In this document: one piece after another, positions 1-9,586 of the stretch
Numbering within the stretch: the first letter of the stretch is position 1
Layout: each line of letters begins with the position of its first letter
DNA from: a virus
Lineage: Duplodnaviria > Heunggongvirae > Uroviricota > Caudoviricetes
Direction: 5' to 3' (one strand)
Length of the DNA: 9,586 bases
IMG/VR virus record: IMGVR_UViG_3300015179_000037
Coordinates: 1 to 9,586 of that record
Notes under the pieces: generated by a model
Database searches by the model: none
What the model was told of the DNA's origin: nothing
What the model saw: only the letters and a program-made list of their open reading frames with translations
Translations under genes and position numbers: made by a program

Positions 1-207
1 ATCAATGGTTCGTTTACTTGCAAAAGCAAGATACTCAAGCCTTTATCTATGTCCAAAAAAAATTGGTAAAATCATTTAAAGAAAAAACACAACAGTTTAC
101 AGGATTATCTGTCTTGATGTTTTATTATCAGGAAGCACAGCGTCAAGTTCCCGCGCACTACGGATAATGACAAAACCCGTCCTTTCGGTACGCTCCAGAC
201 GAAAAAA

Positions 208-612
208 GTGACTGGCAGTCTCAGCGCCGATATGCTGATTGACCTGAAATTTACGCTGCGCAATAAGTACCGCAAAAAAGCTGTATGGGTGATGAACTCA
301 AATACAGCCGCCTCCGCACAAAAACTGAAAAATGCCACTGGTGATTACATCTGGCGCGATCGTTTACAGGCTGGTGATCCTGATTCTCTGCTGGGGCTTC
401 CGGTTGAATATCTGGAATTTATGCCGGACGGTGTGATTGCAGTCGGTGACTTTAAGCGCGGTTATTTCATCGTTGACCATAAAACCGGTACGCGTACCCG
501 TCCGGATTTCAGCGAGCCTGGATTCATTAACATCTATACCCAGAAATATCTGGGCGGTGGTGTGGTGGATTCGAACGCCATCAAGATTCTGGAAATTCAG
601 GCTGGCAAGTAA
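208..612 (+). CDS. HK97-family major capsid protein, C-terminal portion only; the frame is open from 118 but closed upstream, so this is probably a 5'-truncated or interrupted gene.
   Basis: The translation (AVWVMNSNTAA...LLGLPVEYLEFMPDGVIAVGDFKRGYFIVDH...YLGGGVVDSNAIKILEI) has the pattern I associate with HK97-fold capsid C-termini. Frame 1 has stops at 67-69 and 115-117 and no other frame continues into it. The ORF-track start at 208 is a GTG. Confidence 0.55.
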   Translation: MTGSLSADMLIDLKFTLRNKYRKKAVWVMNSNTAASAQKLKNATGDYIWRDRLQAGDPDSLLGLPVEYLEFMPDGVIAVGDFKRGYFIVDHKTGTRTRPDFSEPGFINIYTQKYLGGGVVDSNAIKILEIQAGK

Positions 613-620
613 TGAGCAAA

Positions 621-641
621 GGGGGCTTCGGCCTCCTTTTT
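621..641 (+). terminator. Candidate intrinsic terminator or attenuator immediately after the capsid ORF
   Basis: GGGGGC-TTCG-GCCTCC forms a 6-bp stem (one G-U pair) with a UUCG tetraloop and is followed by TTTTT. It begins 9 nt after the capsid stop. Confidence 0.5.
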
Positions 642-661
642 CAGCTTTATGGAGTACACCG

Positions 662-1222
662 ATGAAAAACACCGATTTTGAAATCCGTACATCTGAACTG
701 ACCGCCAGCGATAAAAAACTGGTGGGTTATGCCGTTCGCTGGAACAGCCTTTCAGAAATTATCTGGGACGAGTTTCGCGAACAGTTCACGCCGGGGGCTT
801 TTGCTGACTATCTGGCGGCGGGTAATGATGTGCGCTGTCTGTATGAGCATGACTATACCCAACTGCTGGGGCGTACCAAATCCGGCTCACTGGTACTGAC
901 TGAGGATAACACCGGGCTACGTTTTGAACTGACACCGCCAAATACCCAGCTTGGAAAAGATGTGCTTACGCTGGTGGAACGTGGCGATATTACAGGAATG
1001 AGCTTTGGCTTTCGCGCATTATGCGAGGAGTGGAATATCGCGCAAAAACCGTATCTGCGTACTGTAACCGCCGCAGAACTCCGTGAAATCACGATAACAT
1101 CGATGCCTGCTTATCCCGAATCCGGCGTGGAGATTGCCCACCGTTCGTTGTTTGCACAGTACCCTGAATTACGCCCGGCAGGAAATAATCGTCATCGCTG
1201 GGCTGAACTGGCGGGGTTGTGA
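662..1222 (+). CDS. Prohead maturation protease, HK97 family (peptidase S78)
   Basis: The translation MKNTDFEIRTSELTASDKKLVGYAVRWNS...LLGRTKSGSLVLTEDNTGLRFELTPPNTQLGKDVLTLVERGDITGMSFGF matches the conserved layout of HK97 prohead proteases. The ATG at 662 has GGAG upstream; the track start at 437 is an in-frame upstream extension. Confidence 0.85.
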   Translation: MKNTDFEIRTSELTASDKKLVGYAVRWNSLSEIIWDEFREQFTPGAFADYLAAGNDVRCLYEHDYTQLLGRTKSGSLVLTEDNTGLRFELTPPNTQLGKDVLTLVERGDITGMSFGFRALCEEWNIAQKPYLRTVTAAELREITITSMPAYPESGVEIAHRSLFAQYPELRPAGNNRHRWAELAGL

Positions 1223-1223
1223 T

Positions 1224-2438
1224 ATGTGGTGGCCTTTTAGTCGTAAAAAAAGCGATCTGCGTAACCTGTCCATTGATGATTTTCTGGCGTTGTCTGGTGT
1301 ACCAAATACCGGATCCGGAGAATATGTTTCTGCCGGGACGGCTGAATCATTGCCTGCTGTGATGAACGCGGTTTCTGTCATCGCTGAGGCGGTGGCCACG
1401 ATGCCGTGTTACCTGTATCTGGTACGCAATGATAAGGGCAGAGAGGCGCGGGAATGGCTGGACAGTCACCCGGTAGATATTCTGCTGAATGAGCAGCCTA
1501 ATTCGTGCCTGACACCTTACCAGTTTAAACGCACAATGATGCGTCACTGCCTGCTGAACGGTAACGCCTATGCGGTTATTGAGTGGGGGCGGGACGGGCA
1601 GCCAAAATCACTTCATCCTTATGCGCCGGGGTGTGTTGTACCGGAACGCACAGGCACACACAAATACCGCTATACCATCACCGAACCCTGTACAGGAACG
1701 GTGCGCACGTATTTACAGGAAGAAGTTCTGCATCTCCGCTATGCCTCGGATGATGGCTTTCTGGGGCGTTCCCCCGTCACGATTTGCCGTGAGGCGCTGG
1801 GGCTTGGCCTTGCTCAACAGCGCCACGGAGCCAGCATTATGAAAGATGGCATGATGGCGGCAGGGATTATCACGTCAGGTGAATGGCTGGACGGCGTGAA
1901 AGGTAAACAGGCATTAGACGCACTGGAACGCTACAAGGGGGCGAAAAATGCCGGAAAAACGCCAATCCTTGAAGGGGGCATGGATTACAGGCGGCTGGGG
2001 ATGAGTAACCAGGATGCGGAATGGCTGGCCTCCCGTCGCTTCTCCATTGAAGACATCGCCAGGATGTTCAACGTGTCGCCGATTTTTCTTCAGGAATACA
2101 GCAACAGCACCTACAGCAATTTCAGTGAGGCGAGCCGCGCATTTCTGACCATGACAATGCGCCCGTGGCTGGCGAACTTCGAACAGCAAATCAAGGCCGC
2201 TTTGCTGGTGACTTCTCCCGTACCTGGTACCCGTTATCTGGTTGAGTTTGATTCAGCCGATTTACTGCGCGCCACACCCACCGAACGTTATGCCACGTAT
2301 GAGAAAGGGATTAAGAGCGGGATCATGAATCCGAACGAAGCTCGCGAACGCGAGGGTATGCCGCCGCGTGAAGGTGGTGATGAGTTCAGCCAGGCATGGA
2401 AACAGACTGTGGAAATTAAAGGGAGAAAAGATGAGTGA
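1224..2438 (+). CDS. Phage portal protein, HK97 family
   Basis: A 404-aa product whose C-terminal half (SIEDIARMFNVSPIFL...RPWLANFEQQI...RYLVEFDSADLLRATPTERYATYEKGIKSGIMNPNEAREREGMPP) is typical of HK97-type portals. The ATG at 1224 lies 1 nt after the protease stop; the track start at 1134 overlaps the protease. Confidence 0.85.
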   Translation: MWWPFSRKKSDLRNLSIDDFLALSGVPNTGSGEYVSAGTAESLPAVMNAVSVIAEAVATMPCYLYLVRNDKGREAREWLDSHPVDILLNEQPNSCLTPYQFKRTMMRHCLLNGNAYAVIEWGRDGQPKSLHPYAPGCVVPERTGTHKYRYTITEPCTGTVRTYLQEEVLHLRYASDDGFLGRSPVTICREALGLGLAQQRHGASIMKDGMMAAGIITSGEWLDGVKGKQALDALERYKGAKNAGKTPILEGGMDYRRLGMSNQDAEWLASRRFSIEDIARMFNVSPIFLQEYSNSTYSNFSEASRAFLTMTMRPWLANFEQQIKAALLVTSPVPGTRYLVEFDSADLLRATPTERYATYEKGIKSGIMNPNEAREREGMPPREGGDEFSQAWKQTVEIKGRKDE

Positions 2439-2733
2439 AGCCAGAATTACACCTGATGAAGTCAGGGCACATCTTCGACTTGATGATGATTTATCCGGTG
2501 AAGGCGAACTTCTGAAAATGTATACCGATGCGGCGCTGGAAGCCTGCCAGAAGCATATCGGGAAACGTTTTGAAGACGGGCTGGAATTTACCCCGGCAAT
2601 GCGTGTTGGTTGCCTGATGTACATCGCTTTCCTGTACGAGAACAGGGAAGCAGTTTCACCAGTGGAGCAGTCTGAACTGCCTATGGCTATTTCTGCGCTC
2701 TGGTCGGTTTATCGTGATGTGGGGGTGTACTGA
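2431..2733 (+). CDS. Head-tail connector / DNA-packaging protein, gp6-like
   Basis: The N-terminus MSEARITPDEVRAHLRLDDDLSGEGELL...AALEACQKHIGKRF fits the gp6-like connector family. GGGAG precedes the ATG at 2431, and the gene overlaps the portal stop by 8 nt. Confidence 0.75.
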   Translation: MSEARITPDEVRAHLRLDDDLSGEGELLKMYTDAALEACQKHIGKRFEDGLEFTPAMRVGCLMYIAFLYENREAVSPVEQSELPMAISALWSVYRDVGVY

Positions 2734-3173
2734 TGCCGTGGCAACCATTAAGGCGATGCACTGAGCCGGGCTGTAATAAGCGCGTGAAGTCCGGCAAGTG
2801 TGAAGAGCACAGACGGGCTGTATGGCGTGCAGAGGATGCCAGACGGGGACACCGCCGCGCGCGCGGGTATTCCCGACAGTGGGACAAATACCGCGCCCTG
2901 TACCTGAGCAAAAACCCGTTATGCGTGCGTTGTCTGGCTAAGGGGATTTATACGCCAGCTCTTGTGGTGGATCACATCATCCCCATCAATGGCGGCGGTG
3001 ATGTTCTCTTCTGGCCTGAGTGGAACCACCAGGCATTGTGCCAGACGTGCCACAACCGTAAGACGACACGGGAAGATCCAGCCACGAAAGCGAACCGTAA
3101 GGCGGGCATGTATCGCGAGCAGGAAGAACGGGCGGCACACCGTAACGACTGGATGTATGGCGATGATGACTGA
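2733..3173 (+). CDS. HNH endonuclease, terminase-associated type
   Basis: Cys pairs (CTEPGC, CVRCL, CQTCH) plus DHIIP and NH motifs are characteristic of HNH nucleases. It sits immediately upstream of the terminase genes, as HNH does in HK97-like packaging modules. Its ATG overlaps the connector stop (TGATG). Confidence 0.85.
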   Translation: MPWQPLRRCTEPGCNKRVKSGKCEEHRRAVWRAEDARRGHRRARGYSRQWDKYRALYLSKNPLCVRCLAKGIYTPALVVDHIIPINGGGDVLFWPEWNHQALCQTCHNRKTTREDPATKANRKAGMYREQEERAAHRNDWMYGDDD

Positions 3174-3461
3174 ACAGGAGCAAACCAGGCTGATACGTGG
3201 GTTGATAAGGCAGCGTGACACATGGAAGACACAGGAGACAGGGCACAAAGCCAACAGGACAGGGCGCACAAAACGCACCACAGCGAAGTGATTAACCGAC
3301 CGTGACCGCGAGGTCATGGAATGTTTTCGCAATCGCTGGTGAGGCCGTCAGAGGGGGTGGGGGTGGTTTTCAGGACGAAACCGCCCCTGCCGGACACCGA
3401 CCGCCTCCTCAAATTTTTGTGCACGGGAATTTTTTTGAAAATAATTGGGCGAAAAAAGAAC
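3174..3461 (+). promoter_or_regulatory. Candidate cos / terminase-recognition region between HNH and TerS
   Basis: This is the only sizeable non-coding gap in the module. It contains an imperfect direct repeat (ACAGGAGACAGGGCACAAA at 3231-3249 and ACAGGACAGGGCGCACAAA at 3254-3272), a G-tract GGGGGTGGGGGTGG at 3353-3366, and T/A runs just before the TerS start. Confidence 0.35.
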
Positions 3462-3818
3462 ATGGCAAGACCACCAAAAGCCCCCGCTTACCTGGATGAA
3501 ATCGCGGTCAGGCAGTGGAAGGAAAAATCGCGCCAGCTTTCCGGACGGGAAGACCTTACTCCCGCCGACTGGAGCAATCTGGAGCTGTATTGCGTTAACT
3601 ACTCCATATACCGCAAAGCCGTCGAAGACCTTGCCACGCGCGGGTTCAGCATTGTTAACAGTCAGGGCAGCGAGAGCAGAAACCCCGCCCTGAGCGCAAA
3701 GGCTGACGCTGAAAGAATAATGATCAAAATGGCTTCTTTGCTGGGTTTTGACCCGGTAAGTCGCCGCAGAAATCCACCGGAAACAGAGGAAGAGGACGAG
3801 CTTGACCGCCTGGCATGA
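3462..3818 (+). CDS. Terminase small subunit, P27 family
   Basis: The translation MARPPKAPAYLDEIAVRQWKE...LTPADWSNLELYCVNYSIYRKAVEDL fits the P27-type TerS. I chose the internal ATG at 3462 rather than the track start at 3321, because the extension runs through the G-tract and T-run region. Confidence 0.75.
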   Translation: MARPPKAPAYLDEIAVRQWKEKSRQLSGREDLTPADWSNLELYCVNYSIYRKAVEDLATRGFSIVNSQGSESRNPALSAKADAERIMIKMASLLGFDPVSRRRNPPETEEEDELDRLA

Positions 3819-5463
3819 GTACGCAGAAGGCGTAAAAAACGGCAAAATTACGGCCTGTAAACGACTGAAACAGGCCGTTAAACGGTATTTTTCTGACCTT
3901 GAAAACCCCCTTTACACGTTCGATCCGGAGGTCGTGGAGCGGTTTATTGCCTTTTCCAGGGTGTGTCCGCACGTAAAAGGCGCAATGCGCGGTAGCCCCA
4001 TTGAGCTGGAGCCGTGGCAGCAGTTCGCCTTTGCGTGCATCCTGGGCTTTAAGGTTAAGGCCACCGGACGGCGCAAATACACCAGCGCATTCATTGAAGT
4101 GCCGCGAAAAAATGCCAAATCCACGGTCGCCGCTATCCTGGCTAACTGGTTTCTGGTTATGGAAAACGGGCAGCAGGATATTTACACCGCCGCTGTGAGT
4201 CGTGATCAGGCGCGGATCGTGTTTGATGATGCGCGTCAGATGTGCCTTTTATCCCGACCGTTACGAAAGCGGGTAAATATTCAGGCACACAAGGTGATAC
4301 ACCCGAAAACCAACAGCCTGTTAAAGCCACTGGCAGCAAAAGCGGCAACCATTGAAGGTACAAACCCGAGTCTTGCCATTGTGGATGAATATCACCTGCA
4401 CCCTGACAACGGGGTTTATTCCGCGCTTGAACTGGGAATGGGGGCGCGTCCGGAGGGGCTGTTATTTGCCATCACCACATCGGGGAGCAACGTTGTTTCA
4501 GCCTGTAAACAACACTATGACTATTGCTGCCAGATACTGGATGGTGAAGAGGTGAACGAATCCATGTTCGTGCTGATTTACGAGCTGGATGATGAAAGCG
4601 AGGTTGACGATCCGGCGATGTGGATAAAGGCGAATCCCAATATCGATGTTTCCGTCGATCGTGAAAAACTGGCCTCAACCATCCAGAAAGCGCGGGGTAT
4701 TCCGTCGCAGTGGGTGGAAATGCTCACCAAGCGATTCAATATCTGGTGTCAGGGGGCTACGCCGTGGATGGGTAACGGTGCATGGGCGGAGTGCGCCGGA
4801 ACGTTCGCAGAGGCGGATTTATACGGTCAGGAGTGCTACGCGGGGCTGGACTTATCATCAACCAGCGATATTTCCAGCGTGTGCTATGCCTTTCCGGTCG
4901 GTAAAAAGATTATGCTGGTTTCCCGTCACTATCTGCCGGAATTTCAGCTACAGAACCCCGCCAATAAAAACCGCGCCATCTATCGCCAGTGGGTAAAGGC
5001 GGGCTGGATACGCACAACACCGGGTGACTGCATTGATTATGACCGTATCCGTGATGACATCATGGCGGATGCAGAGAATTTCAATATCAGGCTGGTGGGC
5101 TTCGATACATGGAACGCCACGCACCTGAGGACGCAGCTACAGGGGGCAGGATTTGAGGTGGAGCCGTTCCCGCAAACATACCTTCGTTTCAGTCCGGCGG
5201 CGAAATCGTTCGAAGTTTTTGTTAACCGGAAGGTGATTGTGCATCGTGGCGATCCGGTGCTGGCCTGGTCAATGAGTAATGTTGTGATGCAGAGTGACGC
5301 GAACGCCAATATCAAGCCGAACAAGAAAAAATCATCCAACAAGATAGACCCGAGCGTTGCGGCGCTGATGGCGTTTGGCACATTCCAGGCAGAGCATGAG
5401 GAATTTGCATTTGATATGAGCGACAGCCACAAAGAGCGGCTTGCGGCGTTTGATGGGGTATGA
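3802..5463 (+). CDS. Terminase large subunit (ATPase/nuclease)
   Basis: A 553-aa product with a Walker-A-like VPRKNAKST, a Walker-B-like LAIVDE and a C-terminal nuclease-like region. The start appears to be TTG at 3802, overlapping the TerS stop. Confidence 0.9.
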   Translation: MTAWHEYAEGVKNGKITACKRLKQAVKRYFSDLENPLYTFDPEVVERFIAFSRVCPHVKGAMRGSPIELEPWQQFAFACILGFKVKATGRRKYTSAFIEVPRKNAKSTVAAILANWFLVMENGQQDIYTAAVSRDQARIVFDDARQMCLLSRPLRKRVNIQAHKVIHPKTNSLLKPLAAKAATIEGTNPSLAIVDEYHLHPDNGVYSALELGMGARPEGLLFAITTSGSNVVSACKQHYDYCCQILDGEEVNESMFVLIYELDDESEVDDPAMWIKANPNIDVSVDREKLASTIQKARGIPSQWVEMLTKRFNIWCQGATPWMGNGAWAECAGTFAEADLYGQECYAGLDLSSTSDISSVCYAFPVGKKIMLVSRHYLPEFQLQNPANKNRAIYRQWVKAGWIRTTPGDCIDYDRIRDDIMADAENFNIRLVGFDTWNATHLRTQLQGAGFEVEPFPQTYLRFSPAAKSFEVFVNRKVIVHRGDPVLAWSMSNVVMQSDANANIKPNKKKSSNKIDPSVAALMAFGTFQAEHEEFAFDMSDSHKERLAAFDGV

Positions 5464-5753
5464 CGAGAATGAGCGAAACCGAACTACTAAAAATAATCCG
5501 CCGCGTTACCGGAATCAGCCAGGAAGCAGGCAAACAGGAGGCCACGCAGCCGGACAGCGTGATAGCCAAAAATTACGCGCGTGTGGTGGCTGAGGTGATG
5601 CGCCGTGACGGTATCGAGCTTAACGGCGTGGATATACGCAATATACGCACCAGAGTTCTGGAGTTGTTGTCATATCGTCGCCGCGTGGAGATGTACCAGG
5701 AGAAAGAAAAAATTACTTACCACTGGAAGAAGCCGGAGCGGTTGCGGCGGTAA
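5460..5753 (+). CDS. Hypothetical 97-aa basic protein, translationally coupled to TerL; function unknown
   Basis: Its ATG overlaps the TerL stop (GTATGA). I recognise no family from the sequence (MTRMSETELLKIIRRVTGISQEAGKQ...RRRVEMYQEKEKITYHWKKPERLRR). It is the last ORF before the non-coding island end. Confidence 0.5.
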   Translation: MTRMSETELLKIIRRVTGISQEAGKQEATQPDSVIAKNYARVVAEVMRRDGIELNGVDIRNIRTRVLELLSYRRRVEMYQEKEKITYHWKKPERLRR

Positions 5754-6046
5754 CTGGTTGATATTCCCGACGTTCCAAAAATGGGTTGGCTACACCCCTC
5801 ACAACTACGACATTTTCGCAGTTTAATTAATGGTCAGTTTAATCGCTAACCCGCTGATATTTTCGGAAACCTCAATTTGAGGAGACCGGAACGTCTACAT
5901 GGCTGCATCACCATAACGATGATTTAGCCCACCAGCAACCATAACGATTTCCGTTACAGTTGATGTGCTTTTTTGCTGGTAAGGCCTAACCCGTTGATTC
6001 TTCCACAATCCCCCATTGGGGGAGGCTGGGCGGCCTGCTGTGGGCT

Positions 6047-6065
6047 TTTCCACCATTGGTGGAAA
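6047..6065. repeat. Perfect 19-bp palindrome TTTCCACCATTGGTGGAAA, sharing a CCATTGG core with the 13-bp palindrome CCCCCATTGGGGG at 6010-6022
   Basis: Read directly from the sequence; the two palindromes are about 25 bp apart edge to edge. Confidence 0.9.
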
Positions 6066-6284
6066 GGTGCAGATCTGGATCATCATTACGGTGATCAAGG
6101 GTATGTAAAACCCACCAGCCTGATTGACATTTAACCGGAAAAAAGCCAGGTAGCCCCGTTATGGGGATCCCCATATCGACATTAACGCCCCTCATGAATT
6201 GGCGTGCTTCTCCCTGGAAAGATGACCCGCCTGTATATTTCTTGTGTCTATTTGTTCCACGTTGTTTCATACAGTGCACCGAAC

Positions 6285-6308
6285 GGTGTAGTTAATGGTG
6301 TAGTTAAT
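6285..6308. repeat. Perfect tandem duplication, 2 x 12 bp (GGTGTAGTTAAT)
   Basis: Read directly from the sequence; it lies close to the inferred island/chromosome junction. Confidence 0.9.
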
Positions 6309-6352
6309 TTGCGATTTTTGGCACTTCTTGCAGTGTATATTGTTTAATTAAA

Positions 6353-6391
6353 TCAATGCGTTATTGAAAATAAGTTATAGATATATCCCAT
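6353..6391 (-). pseudogene. allE: Probable orphaned 5' end of allE (ylbA): start codon and RBS retained after allC, gene body replaced by the insertion
   Basis: On the minus strand the allC stop is followed by AGGAG and, 10 nt later, ATG GGA TAT, which then runs into a stop after 12 codons (MGYIYNLFSITH*). From memory, E. coli AllE begins MGY and starts a few bp after allC. Confidence 0.4.
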
Positions 6392-6401
6392 TTATGACTC
6401 C

Positions 6402-7637
6402 TTATTTCTGCCAGGCAAGTTGATAAAGCATGAGTGCCAACGTTTTGACCCCTTCGGCAAGGTCGGTAATATTGGTGCGTTCCGCCGGGTTATGGCTGAT
6501 CCCATTGATGCTGGGAATGAAAATCATGCAGGTTGGTACGCGAGGCGCGAAAATTTGCGCGTCGTGCCCGGCACCACTGTGCATCACCCGGTAATTCAGT
6601 TTTTCGCTTTCACACAATTCTGTCAGGGTGGCGACCAGGTCCTTATTCATCGGCACGGGTTCTTCGTCCATCCATAAATCGATATCAATACCAATGTCCA
6701 TTTCATCGCAAATCGCCCGCATGTCGTTTTCTAACTGCTGAGTGAAATCGCGCAGCACGGCGGCGTCGGTATGACGACAATCAATGGTGAATGTGGTTTT
6801 ACCCGGCACCACATTCACCGTATTCGGGCGCGGCTCCACCTTACCAAAGGTCAGCACCAGCGGGTCGCCCATCTTTTTCGCTTTTTCGATCGACTGATGG
6901 CAAATGCGACTGAAAGCGTAAACTGTATCACGACGGTAACCCATCGGCGTGGTGCCTGCATGGTTTGATTCGCCGTTCAGCGTCACCGTATAGCGACGTT
7001 GCCCGACAATTGCATTCACCACGCCAATTGATTGCCCATTACTTTCCAGCACACAGCCCTGTTCGATATGCAGTTCGACAAAGGCTTTAATATCCTGACG
7101 CGGAGTTAGCGGGGCGTCCGGCAGAGTAAATCCGCAAGCCTTCATCGCATCGACAAAACTATTTCCTTTGGCATCACAGATATTCCGCACGTCGTCAGGA
7201 TTCGCCAGCCCAAAGATATTTTTACTGCCCCAGAAAACATACGGGAAGCGGCTGCCTTCTTCTTCCGCCATCGCCACCACTTCAACCGTACGTAACGGCG
7301 CGCCGTATTGCCTTTTCAACCAGTCAATTGCCAGCCACGCCGCCAGCGCGCCGAATTGCCCGTCGAGGTTACCGCCGTTAACCACGGTATCGATATGCGA
7401 ACCGCTCAGAACCACTTCCTGTGGATATTCGGTGCCACTCAGGCGACCGTATAAATTCCCCACTTCATCGAAACGTGTTTCCAGCCCGCTTGCTGCCATT
7501 CTTTTTTTAAATTGCTGCTGGGTTTCCAGCCATTCCGGCGAATAAAGTAAACGGGTCATCCCACCCGTTGGGTCAGCGCCAAAAGAGGAAAGCCAGGGCA
7601 GCGTTTCTTCTATGGCTTGACGGAAATGTGTAATCAT
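6402..7637 (-). CDS. allC: Allantoate amidohydrolase
   Basis: The translation MITHFRQAIEETLPWLSSFGADP...LMLYQLAWQK matches E. coli AllC as I recall it across its length. The start is the ATG at 7637 with an AGGA RBS; the track start at 7655 is an upstream extension. Confidence 0.93.
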   Translation of the reverse strand: MITHFRQAIEETLPWLSSFGADPTGGMTRLLYSPEWLETQQQFKKRMAASGLETRFDEVGNLYGRLSGTEYPQEVVLSGSHIDTVVNGGNLDGQFGALAAWLAIDWLKRQYGAPLRTVEVVAMAEEEGSRFPYVFWGSKNIFGLANPDDVRNICDAKGNSFVDAMKACGFTLPDAPLTPRQDIKAFVELHIEQGCVLESNGQSIGVVNAIVGQRRYTVTLNGESNHAGTTPMGYRRDTVYAFSRICHQSIEKAKKMGDPLVLTFGKVEPRPNTVNVVPGKTTFTIDCRHTDAAVLRDFTQQLENDMRAICDEMDIGIDIDLWMDEEPVPMNKDLVATLTELCESEKLNYRVMHSGAGHDAQIFAPRVPTCMIFIPSINGISHNPAERTNITDLAEGVKTLALMLYQLAWQK

Positions 7638-7658
7638 AAGAAAGTCCTGTCTCAATAA

Positions 7659-8708
7659 TTATTGCGCAAAGGGATTTTTCGTTTCGTATGACGTGTTATA
7701 AAGCGCGTCGGAAATTAAATACTGGTAAATATCATCAACAATTTCGATGCCTTCGACGGCGGCTTTGCGTTGTTTCATATCCTGATCCTGTCCGGGATAA
7801 TAAACCTGGTTAAAACCGGGCGCGGGGGTTATGGCATTTAATTCGCGCATGGTCTGGCTAAGATGTTGACGGAATAGTTCGCTGGAGGAGAAAAAGTTCG
7901 GATTAATAACGATATGTAATTGCCCCAAATTACGCCCGGCGTGTAAATCGTCATACATCGAACTAACCTGTCGCCCGAACGGTAAGCCGAGTAAGACGCC
8001 TGAGAGGACGTCAATCATCATCATCAGGCCATACCCTTTCGGTCCGGCGGCAGGGAGCAGGGCGTTAACTGCAAATGGATCGGTTGTTGGTGCTCCGTTT
8101 TTATCGACCGCCCAGGTATCCGGGATAGACATATTACGCGAGCGGGCGTCGAGCACTTTTCCCCATGCCTGTACGGTAGTCGCCATATCAAAGGTAAGGA
8201 TCTCGTCGCCTTCTCCCGGCGCGGCAAAGGCCAGTGGGTTAGTACCGTAGTAAATTTCCGCGCCGCCAAACGGCACCACCATTGGATCGGACTGGCACAT
8301 CGAAATGCCAATTAATCCGGCGCGGGCTGCCTGCTGCACAAAATAAGAGATTGCGCCGCTGTGACCCATCCGGCTGATACCGACCACCGCAACGCCATTT
8401 TGCTGGGCGGTTTTGATGGCATGTTCCATACCCATTTTCGCCGCGACCTGTCCGGCGGCATTGTCGGCATGTAAAATTGCCGAGCACGGCCCGGTTTCCT
8501 CAAGACGAAACTCCGGTTCGCGGTTGGTGCCGCCTTTTGAAATGCGTTCTGCGTAGTATTCAACACGCACCGCGCCATGAGAGTGGATCCCTCTGGCATC
8601 GGCGTAAACCAATACTTCAGCCACGGTTGCAGCGTGCTCACGTTTTAACCCAGCCTGGCAGAGTTTATTCTCAATTAGCTGGTGGAGTGTTTCCCGACTG
8701 ATTTTCAT
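7659..8708 (-). CDS. allD: Ureidoglycolate dehydrogenase
   Basis: The 349-aa translation MKISRETLHQLIENKLCQAGLKREHAATVAEVLVYADARGIHSHGAVRVEYY... matches E. coli AllD. An AAGGAAG RBS precedes it, and it lies 21 bp upstream of allC in the same orientation. Confidence 0.93.
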   Translation of the reverse strand: MKISRETLHQLIENKLCQAGLKREHAATVAEVLVYADARGIHSHGAVRVEYYAERISKGGTNREPEFRLEETGPCSAILHADNAAGQVAAKMGMEHAIKTAQQNGVAVVGISRMGHSGAISYFVQQAARAGLIGISMCQSDPMVVPFGGAEIYYGTNPLAFAAPGEGDEILTFDMATTVQAWGKVLDARSRNMSIPDTWAVDKNGAPTTDPFAVNALLPAAGPKGYGLMMMIDVLSGVLLGLPFGRQVSSMYDDLHAGRNLGQLHIVINPNFFSSSELFRQHLSQTMRELNAITPAPGFNQVYYPGQDQDMKQRKAAVEGIEIVDDIYQYLISDALYNTSYETKNPFAQ

Positions 8709-9024
8709 CTGTCTTCCTTTTTAACGACGGTGTGAAGCATGACTGCAATTAACATACAGGGAAAATATCTGGATTATGTGATCCAGACAGGCAAAAAAAT
8801 ATAGTTAGAATTTATTTGATAATCCGCTCACTTTTAACCTGATTTTTAAAACAACCACGCTTATTAAAAAATAATGAGTAATAGCCTGGCGGTTATTTGA
8901 ATTCTTTTGTTAATAATTCCTGTGTGATATTCATCACCTTATTTACTCGTTGTCATCGATACCGTAATCGCCACATTAACACTGCTCGTGCAATTGCCAT
9001 GAGTGCAATTTTTAAGGAGTTGTT
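8709..9024. promoter_or_regulatory. Divergent allD / fdrA intergenic control region
   Basis: An AT-rich 316-bp gap between divergently oriented genes. It contains an inverted repeat TCTGGAT-N6-ATCCAGA at 8768-8787 and a GTGCAATT direct repeat pair (8990-8997 and 9003-9010) just upstream of the fdrA RBS. Confidence 0.5.
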
Positions 9025-9586
9025 ATGATCCACGCCTTTATTAAAAAAGGGTGTTTTCAGGATTCGGTCAGTTTAATGATTATTTCACGAAAACTCAGCG
9101 AATCAGAAAATGTTGATGATGTTTCCGTAATGATGGGTACGCCCGCCAATAAAGCGTTATTAGATACCACAGGTTTCTGGCATGACGATTTTAATAACGC
9201 CACGCCGAACGATATTTGCGTGGCAATTCGTAGCGAAGCGGCGGATGCGGGGATCGCGCAGGCGATTATGCAGCAGCTTGAAGAGGCGCTAAAACAACTG
9301 GCGCAGGGGTCAGGCAGCAGCCAGGCGTTGACGCAGGTGCGTCGCTGGGACAGTGCCTGTCAGAAATTACCCGATGCCAATCTGGCGCTGATTTCAGTGG
9401 CTGGCGAGTATGCGGCGGAGCTGGCAAACCAGGCGCTGGATCGCAACCTCAACGTGATGATGTTCTCCGATAACGTCACGCTGGAAGATGAAATCCAACT
9501 TAAAACCCGCGCGCGGGAAAAAGGCTTGCTGGTGATGGGGCCGGACTGCGGTACGTCGATGATTGCCGGCAGATCGGAAGAGCGTC
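9025..9586 (+). CDS. fdrA: FdrA, 5' partial; runs off the window, and the final 16 nt are probably adapter rather than gene
   Basis: AAGGAG RBS then ATG at 9025; the translation MIHAFIKKGCFQDSVSLMIISRKLSESENVDDVSVMMGTPANKALLDTTGFWHDDF... matches E. coli FdrA as I recall it. Confidence 0.85.
   Translation, partial: MIHAFIKKGCFQDSVSLMIISRKLSESENVDDVSVMMGTPANKALLDTTGFWHDDFNNATPNDICVAIRSEAADAGIAQAIMQQLEEALKQLAQGSGSSQALTQVRRWDSACQKLPDANLALISVAGEYAAELANQALDRNLNVMMFSDNVTLEDEIQLKTRAREKGLLVMGPDCGTSMIAGRSEER
9571..9586. other. Probable Illumina adapter remnant (AGATCGGAAGAGCGTC) at the 3' end of the contig/window
   Basis: An exact 16-nt match to the start of the standard Illumina TruSeq adapter AGATCGGAAGAGCGTCGTGTAGGG..., located exactly at the window end. 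Confidence 0.8.

What the first reader, a model, noticed from the sequence alone, without database searches (positions are those of the whole stretch)
1..240. Abrupt composition break and reading-frame closure at the 5' side of the capsid gene
The first ~117 nt are about 30% G+C by my hand count and contain A8 and A6 homopolymer runs, whereas the capsid frame and everything downstream is around 50%. The capsid frame (frame 1) is closed by stops at 67-69 and 115-117, and no other frame reads into it; frame 3 carries an unrelated-looking ORF that ends at 165-167. The capsid therefore looks like a C-terminal remnant fused to different, low-GC DNA. That could be an insertion or replacement event (accessory cargo inside a structural gene), a frameshifted pseudogene, or an assembly chimera.
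Basis: seen in the sequence. Interest (0 to 1): 0.5.

Follow-up and report, generated by a model that had tools for sequence, protein, structure and literature searches.

The report
Chimeric contig tip, not biology
The low-GC DNA in front of the truncated capsid gene is a 147-base piece of an Enterococcus housekeeping gene stuck onto E. coli DNA, almost certainly during library preparation or assembly, so the "broken capsid" is a sequencing artefact.

Summary
Bases 148-9571 are one colinear block, 99.1% identical to the E. coli AST20 chromosome. That block holds the packaging half of a capsid-forming PICI-type island, then allC-allD-fdrA. Bases 148-612 are 465/465 identical to codons 228-381 of an intact 381-aa HK97-type capsid gene found in many E. 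coli genomes.

Bases 1-147 match nothing in 5,426 E. coli genomes or in the plasmid collection. They are 100% identical to an internal piece of holB (DNA polymerase III delta') in two low-coverage SPAdes contigs. Those contigs were deposited as "UNVERIFIED_ORG Listeria phage" from a wastewater project. The same bases are 96.6% identical to Enterococcus lactis holB.

The join is blunt (no shared bases) and out of frame, and it cuts both genes internally. It has no mobile-element features and was not found in any other collection searched. The other end of the window (9571-9586) is a 16-base Illumina TruSeq adapter remnant, so this is a raw, untrimmed contig.

Best explanation (about 0.93): a chimeric read or fragment was incorporated at a contig tip. 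Frameshift pseudogene and cargo insertion are rejected. Interest is low.

The parts
1..147 (+). Foreign tip: internal fragment of an Enterococcus (E. faecium/E. lactis group) holB gene for DNA polymerase III delta'. It spans about codons 218-267 of 312 and reads in window frame 3.
   Evidence: 100% identical over 147/147 nt to OR846934 (L002 6965-7111) and OR848382 (L003 6308-6454). The enclosing 312-aa ORF scores 378.8 bits on NCBIfam NF005972, DNA polymerase III subunit delta'. It sits in a recR-tmk-yaaQ-holB-ricT-yabA cluster; holB and ricT were confirmed with NCBIfam, the other names are my reading of the ORF translations. 96.6% nt and 97% aa identity to Enterococcus lactis CCM 8412. No match in 5,426 E. 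coli genomes or in PLSDB plasmids.
147..148 (.). Chimeric junction: blunt, 0 nt of shared sequence, with holB frame 3 joined to capsid frame 1.
   Evidence: Three-way alignment and flank printout. Enterococcus continues ...CAAG|CAGTAGC, and E. coli reads ...CTGACT|TTCCCGC. The 41-mer across the junction is absent from viral contigs and metagenome contigs.
148..612 (+). 3' 40% of an HK97-type major capsid gene (residues 228-381 plus stop) from an E. coli cf-PICI-type island.
   Evidence: 465/465 nt identical to the intact 381-aa capsid genes of E. coli AST20 and AST240. Pfam PF05065 covers profile 125-279 of 280. TIGR01554 covers profile 241-384 of 385, against 3-384 for the intact gene.
18..167 (+). 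Spurious fusion ORF: the holB fragment reads across the junction into out-of-frame capsid DNA and stops at 165-167.
   Evidence: The translation ...YYQEAQRQ|VPAHYG* follows holB up to the junction. No Pfam hit.
662..5463 (+). Context: the rest of the island's packaging module. S78 prohead protease 662-1222, portal 1224-2438, head-tail connector 2431-2733, HNH 2733-3173, TerS 3462-3818, TerL 3802-5463.
   Evidence: Pfam hits. Colinear with the RefSeq annotation of E. coli AST20.
6284..6309 (+). Context: right-hand copy of a 26-nt direct repeat (CGGTGTAGTTAATGGTGTAGTTAATT) that flanks the island in E. coli AST20. It is a putative attR, followed by allC, allD and fdrA.
   Evidence: The repeat lies at L034 2706 (upstream of int) and at L034 17135. 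There is a single exact match in the window, with 0 expected by chance.
9571..9586 (+). Illumina TruSeq adapter remnant (AGATCGGAAGAGCGTC) forming the 3' end of the window.
   Evidence: 0 matches expected by chance. E. coli fdrA continues ...GCCGGCACGCCGCTGG where the window has ...GCCGGCAGATCGGAAGAGCGTC. That this is the adapter sequence comes from my own knowledge of Illumina adapters.

Best explanation
The window is a raw short-read contig of E. coli chromosomal DNA: the right half of a cf-PICI-type island plus allC-allD-fdrA. Its 5' tip is an in-vitro chimera. During library construction, a fragment of Enterococcus chromosomal DNA (inside holB) became joined end-to-end to an E. coli fragment that began at codon 228 of the island's capsid gene. 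Blunt ligation of two fragments before adapter ligation is the likely route. At low coverage the assembler kept the resulting chimeric read or read pair and used it to extend the contig end by 147 nt.

Nothing biological happened to the capsid gene. In the source E. coli it is almost certainly the intact 381-aa gene.

Shown: the two origins, the exact blunt junction, the absence of the junction elsewhere, and the adapter at the other end.

Inferred: that the join arose in vitro, and that the window comes from the same sequencing project as the two Enterococcus contigs.
For: 1. Bases 148-9571 form one colinear block, 99.08% identical to E. coli AST20. The capsid part is 465/465 identical to intact 381-aa genes.

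2. Bases 1-147 are 100% identical to holB in two SPAdes contigs: NODE_219, coverage 4.98, and NODE_285, coverage 3.80. Both come from one wastewater phage project and are labelled UNVERIFIED_ORG. Identity to the nearest species representative, E. lactis, is only 96.6%. So the same Enterococcus strain was being sequenced in that project.

3. The junction is blunt and out of frame, and it truncates both genes internally.

4. Bases 1-147 are absent from 5,426 complete E. coli genomes and 72,556 plasmids. The junction 41-mer is absent from IMG/VR and JGI metagenome contigs.

5. The foreign segment sits at the extreme contig end and is only 147 nt long, within one read or fragment length.

6. The opposite contig end is a 16-nt TruSeq adapter remnant. 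This shows untrimmed reads and artefactual contig tips in this assembly, and a ligation-based library.

7. Other records that appear to belong to the same submission (adjacent accession numbers, same naming style, also unannotated) are bacterial chromosomal contigs labelled as phages.

8. Chimeric reads contaminating deposited viral assemblies are a documented problem (PMC8376068, abstract).
Against: No reads are available, so coverage and read-pair support across 147|148 could not be examined.

The window's own accession was not found in the collections. Its membership of the same project as OR846934 and OR848382 is therefore inferred from the 100% identity.

A-tailed TruSeq-type libraries are designed to suppress fragment-to-fragment ligation, so the exact in-vitro route (ligation or polymerase template switching) is not established.
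Confidence: 0.93

Rival explanations
1. Assembler mis-join: the de Bruijn graph connected a true Enterococcus path and a true E. coli path through a shared k-mer or repeat, with no chimeric molecule involved.
For: Both organisms seem to be present in the project's data. Coverage of sister contigs is only 4-5x.
Against: The two sources share no bases at the junction. A graph mis-join needs an overlap of at least k (21 or more). A graph join would also not be expected to stop after exactly 147 nt of the Enterococcus path.
Confidence: 0.04
2. Real in-vivo event: Enterococcus chromosomal DNA was integrated into, or replaced the 5' part of, the capsid gene of a cf-PICI in an E. coli strain by illegitimate recombination after inter-phylum transfer.
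For: Nothing positive. The contig ends 147 nt into the foreign DNA, so the far boundary is unseen and the event cannot be formally excluded.
Against: The foreign piece is an internal fragment of a housekeeping replication gene, with no transposase, inverted repeats or att-like sequence.

It is 100% identical to Enterococcus contigs from a single sequencing project.

None of 5,426 E. coli genomes, 72,556 plasmids, IMG/VR contigs or JGI metagenome contigs carries the sequence or the junction.

The other contig end is an adapter.
Confidence: 0.02
3. Frameshifted or degraded capsid pseudogene: the upstream sequence is capsid N-terminus disrupted by homopolymer errors or mutations.
For: Homopolymers A8 and A6, and in-frame stops at 67 and 115.
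Against: Bases 1-147 have no similarity to the capsid gene in any frame. The true capsid sequence upstream of codon 228 (…GEKKAKGFLT) is entirely different. The homopolymers are the native holB sequence, identical in three independent Enterococcus sequences.
Confidence: 0.005

Closest known systems
Chimeric reads or contig tips in short-read viral and metagenomic assemblies (for example, the virus-host rRNA chimeras in GenBank described in PMC8376068)
   Same: Two unrelated sources are joined abruptly at the end of a low-coverage contig in a deposited 'viral' record. The join is explained by library-level chimeric reads carried into the assembly.
   Different: Here both partners are bacterial chromosomal DNA (Enterococcus holB and an E. 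coli satellite capsid gene) in a DNA library, not host rRNA joined to virus in RNA-seq. Read-level proof is not available to me.
Capsid-forming PICI (cf-PICI) satellites of Enterobacteriaceae, such as EcCIEDL933 (described in PMC10085698)
   Same: The E. coli part has the gene set and order capsid, S78 protease, portal, head-tail connector, HNH, TerS, TerL, with no tail or lysis genes. In complete genomes this follows int, HTH regulator and primase/helicase, and the island is flanked by a direct repeat.
   Different: Only the right half of the island is in the window, and its capsid gene is cut by the artefact. SatelliteFinder itself was not run.
Illumina TruSeq adapter read-through contamination
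   Same: The window ends with AGATCGGAAGAGCGTC exactly where homology to E. coli fdrA stops.
   Different: Only 16 nt are retained. The identification rests on my knowledge of the adapter sequence.

Membership tests
Library or assembly chimera (artefact) | Each side of the junction matches a different, unrelated organism at near-identity | tested here: met
   Bases 1-147 are 100% identical to Enterococcus holB contigs. Bases 148-9571 are 99.08% identical to the E. coli AST20 chromosome.
Library or assembly chimera (artefact) | The junction is not reproduced in any independent sequence | tested here: met
   No E. coli genome or plasmid holds 1-147. The junction 41-mer is absent from viral and metagenome contigs. 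Hits to the junction 20-mer are chance matches in unrelated contigs of 57-70% GC with no flank similarity.
Library or assembly chimera (artefact) | Both source organisms are present in the same sequencing project, and there are other signs of unclean reads | tested here: inconclusive
   Identity is 100% to two contigs of one wastewater project but only 96.6% to the species representative. An adapter remnant sits at the other contig end. The window's own record and project could not be identified directly.
Library or assembly chimera (artefact) | The junction is supported by only one or a few reads, with discordant mates | not testable with these tools
   No read data are available.
HK97-fold major capsid protein (TIGR01554 / PF05065), intact gene | Full-length coverage of the family profile with a start codon | tested here: not met
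   The window fragment covers only profile positions 241-384 of 385. The intact E. coli homologue covers 3-384. Residues 1-227 are missing.
Mobile-element insertion or accessory cargo inside a structural gene | Element ends (inverted repeats or att), a recombinase or transposase, or recognisable cargo at the breakpoint | tested here: not met
   The foreign DNA is an internal fragment of holB within a recR-tmk-yaaQ-holB-ricT-yabA housekeeping cluster. It has no plasmid hits, and its only significant phage-collection hits are the two mislabelled holB contigs.
Capsid-forming PICI (context of the capsid gene) | Capsid, protease, portal, head-tail connector, HNH, TerS and TerL are present; tail and holin genes are absent; int, regulator and primase lie at the left end | tested here: met
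   Pfam hits in the window. The complete island in AST20 and AST240 has int, HTH, primase or RepA helicase, and no tail or lysis genes, between allE and allC or between gcd and hpt. The criteria are those of PMC10085698. SatelliteFinder was not run.

The most novel reading that the evidence does not exclude
The junction is real. An E. coli strain, or a particle packaged from it, carries a cf-PICI whose capsid gene was interrupted by a piece of Enterococcus chromosome. That would be a recent Firmicute-to-Proteobacteria DNA transfer captured inside a phage satellite.
Probability: 0.02. Interest if true: 0.5.

Novelty: not a real feature. Interest (0 to 1): 0.05.

Why it matters
It matters only for data hygiene. 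The record mixes DNA of two phyla plus an adapter remnant, and it appears to belong to a set of bacterial contigs deposited under phage names. Anyone mining it could wrongly report a truncated or fused capsid gene, a novel ORF (18-167), or cross-phylum gene transfer. The window should be trimmed to 148-9570 and treated as E. coli chromosome carrying a cf-PICI-type island.

Tried and rejected
1. Frameshift or homopolymer-error hypothesis. All three frames of 1-240 were translated and the region was aligned to the intact capsid gene. There is no capsid similarity upstream of 148.

2. Search for 1-147 in E. coli genomes (distant mode, E up to 10) and in plasmids. Nothing beyond chance was found.

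3. Search for the junction in public contigs.
   - The 41-mer gave 0 hits in viral and metagenome collections.
   - A shorter 20-mer gave 17 metagenome hits and 1 viral hit.
   - Inspection showed these are unrelated high-GC contigs sharing only the 20-21 nt, mostly one conserved gene of an environmental lineage. They were rejected as chance matches.

4. Mobile-element reading. The neighbourhood of the fragment in L002 is a housekeeping cluster, not an element.

5. Composition as proof. Equally AT-rich 147-nt windows occur in two E. coli intergenic regions of the same window, so composition alone is not decisive.

6. The window's own GenBank record did not appear in the 'phages' collection, so its provenance could not be read directly.

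Full report

- G+C is 29.9% over 1-117 and 32.0% over 1-147. It is 48.8% over 148-612 and 51.5% over 148-9571.
- A8 lies at 55-62 and A6 at 82-87.
- Frame 1 is closed by stops at 67-69 and 115-117. A frame-3 ORF (18-167) ends at 165-167.

Composition alone is only moderately unusual. 1.5% of the 147-nt windows in the rest of the sequence are equally AT-rich, all overlapping one of two intergenic stretches.

**What the downstream part is.** Bases 148-9571 are a single colinear block, 99.08% identical to the chromosome of E. coli AST20.

- The RefSeq annotation of that genome and Pfam scans of the window ORFs agree on the gene content: HK97-type major capsid (to 612), S78 prohead protease (662-1222), portal (1224-2438), head-tail connector, HNH, TerS and TerL (3802-5463). 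Then come allC, allD and fdrA.
- In complete genomes this module is the right half of an island of about 14 kb. The island has integrase, HTH regulator and primase/helicase, and no tail or lysis genes. It sits between allE and allC, or in another copy between gcd and hpt.
- In AST20 the island is flanked by a 26-nt direct repeat, whose right copy is at window 6284-6309.
- This organisation matches the capsid-forming PICI satellites described in PMC10085698.
- The intact capsid gene is 1,146 nt (381 aa). Window 148-612 is 465/465 identical to its codons 228-381. The window fragment covers only positions 241-384 of the 385-position TIGR01554 profile, whereas the intact protein covers 3-384.

So the capsid really is a C-terminal remnant in this window, and naturally short homologues are not the explanation.

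**What the upstream part is.** Bases 1-147 match nothing in 5,426 complete E. coli genomes, even with sensitive blastn at E up to 10, and nothing meaningful in 72,556 plasmids.

- In the phage collection they match two records at 147/147 identity: OR846934 and OR848382.
- Both records are unannotated SPAdes contigs: NODE_219, coverage 4.98, and NODE_285, coverage 3.80. They were deposited as 'UNVERIFIED_ORG: Listeria phage LM 4-11-1 / 4-14-1' from wastewater in Turkey.
- These contigs are not phage. They carry a recR-tmk-yaaQ-holB-ricT-yabA cluster; holB and ricT were confirmed with NCBIfam, the other names are my reading of the ORF translations.
- The ORF that contains the window's 147 nt is DNA polymerase III delta' (NF005972, 378.8 bits, above its cut-off of 340).
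- The closest species representative among 185,579 genomes is Enterococcus lactis CCM 8412. Identity is 97% at the protein level and 142/147 (96.6%) over the fragment.
It runs across the junction into out-of-frame capsid DNA until the first stop.
- The A8 and A6 runs are native holB sequence, identical in all three Enterococcus sequences.

**The junction.** A three-way comparison puts it exactly between 147 and 148.

- Enterococcus continues ...CGTCAAG|CAGTAGC. E. coli reads ...CCTGACT|TTCCCGC. The window reads ...CGTCAAG|TTCCCGC.
- There is no shared base at the join. The two reading frames differ (frame 3 against frame 1), and both genes are cut internally.
- A 41-mer across the junction is absent from IMG/VR and from JGI metagenome contigs.
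- A 20-mer did hit 18 contigs. These are unrelated sequences of 57-70% GC sharing only those 20-21 bases, so I rejected them as chance matches.

**The other end of the window.** Homology to E. coli fdrA stops at 9571. The window ends ...GCCGGC**AGATCGGAAGAGCGTC**, whereas E. coli continues ...GCCGGCACGCCGCTGG. That 16-mer is the start of the Illumina TruSeq read-2 adapter (from my own knowledge). None is expected by chance. The window is therefore a raw contig built from untrimmed reads of a ligation-type library, and at least one of its tips is demonstrably artefactual.

**Explanation.** The simplest account of all these facts is a chimeric template formed in vitro.

- The two partners are an Enterococcus holB fragment and an E. 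coli fragment starting at capsid codon 228.
- The resulting read or read pair was used by the assembler to extend a low-coverage contig end by 147 nt.
- The blunt junction argues against a k-mer-mediated graph mis-join, which needs an overlap of at least k.
- The 100% identity to Enterococcus contigs of one project, against 96.6% to the species representative, indicates that the same strain's DNA was on the bench or flow cell.
- Other records that appear to come from the same submission (adjacent accession numbers, same naming style, also unannotated) are enterobacterial chromosomal contigs labelled as phages.
- Contamination of deposited viral assemblies by chimeric reads is documented (PMC8376068).

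I put this at about 0.93. The in-vitro origin is inferred, not shown, because no reads are available.

**Rivals.**

- A graph mis-join without a chimeric molecule (about 0.04) is disfavoured by the zero overlap.
- A real inter-phylum insertion into the satellite capsid gene (about 0.02) cannot be formally excluded, because the contig ends inside the foreign DNA. It has nothing in its favour: there are no element ends, the foreign DNA is an internal fragment of a housekeeping gene, and no independent occurrence was found.
- A frameshifted pseudogene is refuted outright.

**Verdict.** This is not a real biological feature. Interest is 0.05. The practical consequence is to trim the record to 148-9570 and treat it as E. 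coli chromosome carrying a cf-PICI-type island.

Noticed in passing
window 9571-9586: The window ends in AGATCGGAAGAGCGTC, the start of the Illumina TruSeq read-2 adapter, exactly where identity to E. coli fdrA stops. This is an untrimmed adapter at a contig tip.
   Followed up: yes
window 148-5753, and L034 2753-16603: The 'phage' genes belong to a capsid-forming PICI-type satellite of E. coli, not a phage. The order is capsid, protease, portal, connector, HNH, TerS, TerL, with no tail or lysis genes. In AST20 the island lies between allE and allC. AST240 carries a second copy between gcd and hpt that is 100% identical to window 148-1300.
   Followed up: partly
window 6284-6309 (and L034 2706-2731 / 17135-17160): A 26-nt direct repeat, CGGTGTAGTTAATGGTGTAGTTAATT (itself an internal tandem of GGTGTAGTTAAT), flanks the island in AST20. 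Its right copy is in the window. It is a probable attL/attR core.
   Followed up: partly
window 5754-9570: The contig continues 3.8 kb into chromosomal genes (allC, allD, fdrA). The DNA therefore comes from the integrated island in host chromosome, through bacterial DNA carry-over or generalised/lateral transduction, and not from an excised, packaged satellite genome.
   Followed up: no
L002 (OR846934) and L003 (OR848382), whole records: Two GenBank records named 'Listeria phage LM 4-11-1 / 4-14-1' are Enterococcus chromosomal contigs (recR-tmk-yaaQ-holB-ricT-yabA), 99.97% identical to each other over 7.1 kb. Records OR850982, OR850947, OR845470 and OR845787, which appear to belong to the same submission (adjacent accessions, same naming style), match enterobacterial DNA similar to this window at 76-81% identity. 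OR850947 and OR845470 match the allD-fdrA chromosomal part, and OR850982 and OR845787 match the island's packaging genes. The set looks like mislabelled bacterial contigs.
   Followed up: partly
window 5469-5753: The last island ORF (94 aa, after TerL) has no Pfam hit and is annotated as hypothetical in RefSeq. This is the usual position of accessory genes in PICI-type satellites.
   Followed up: no
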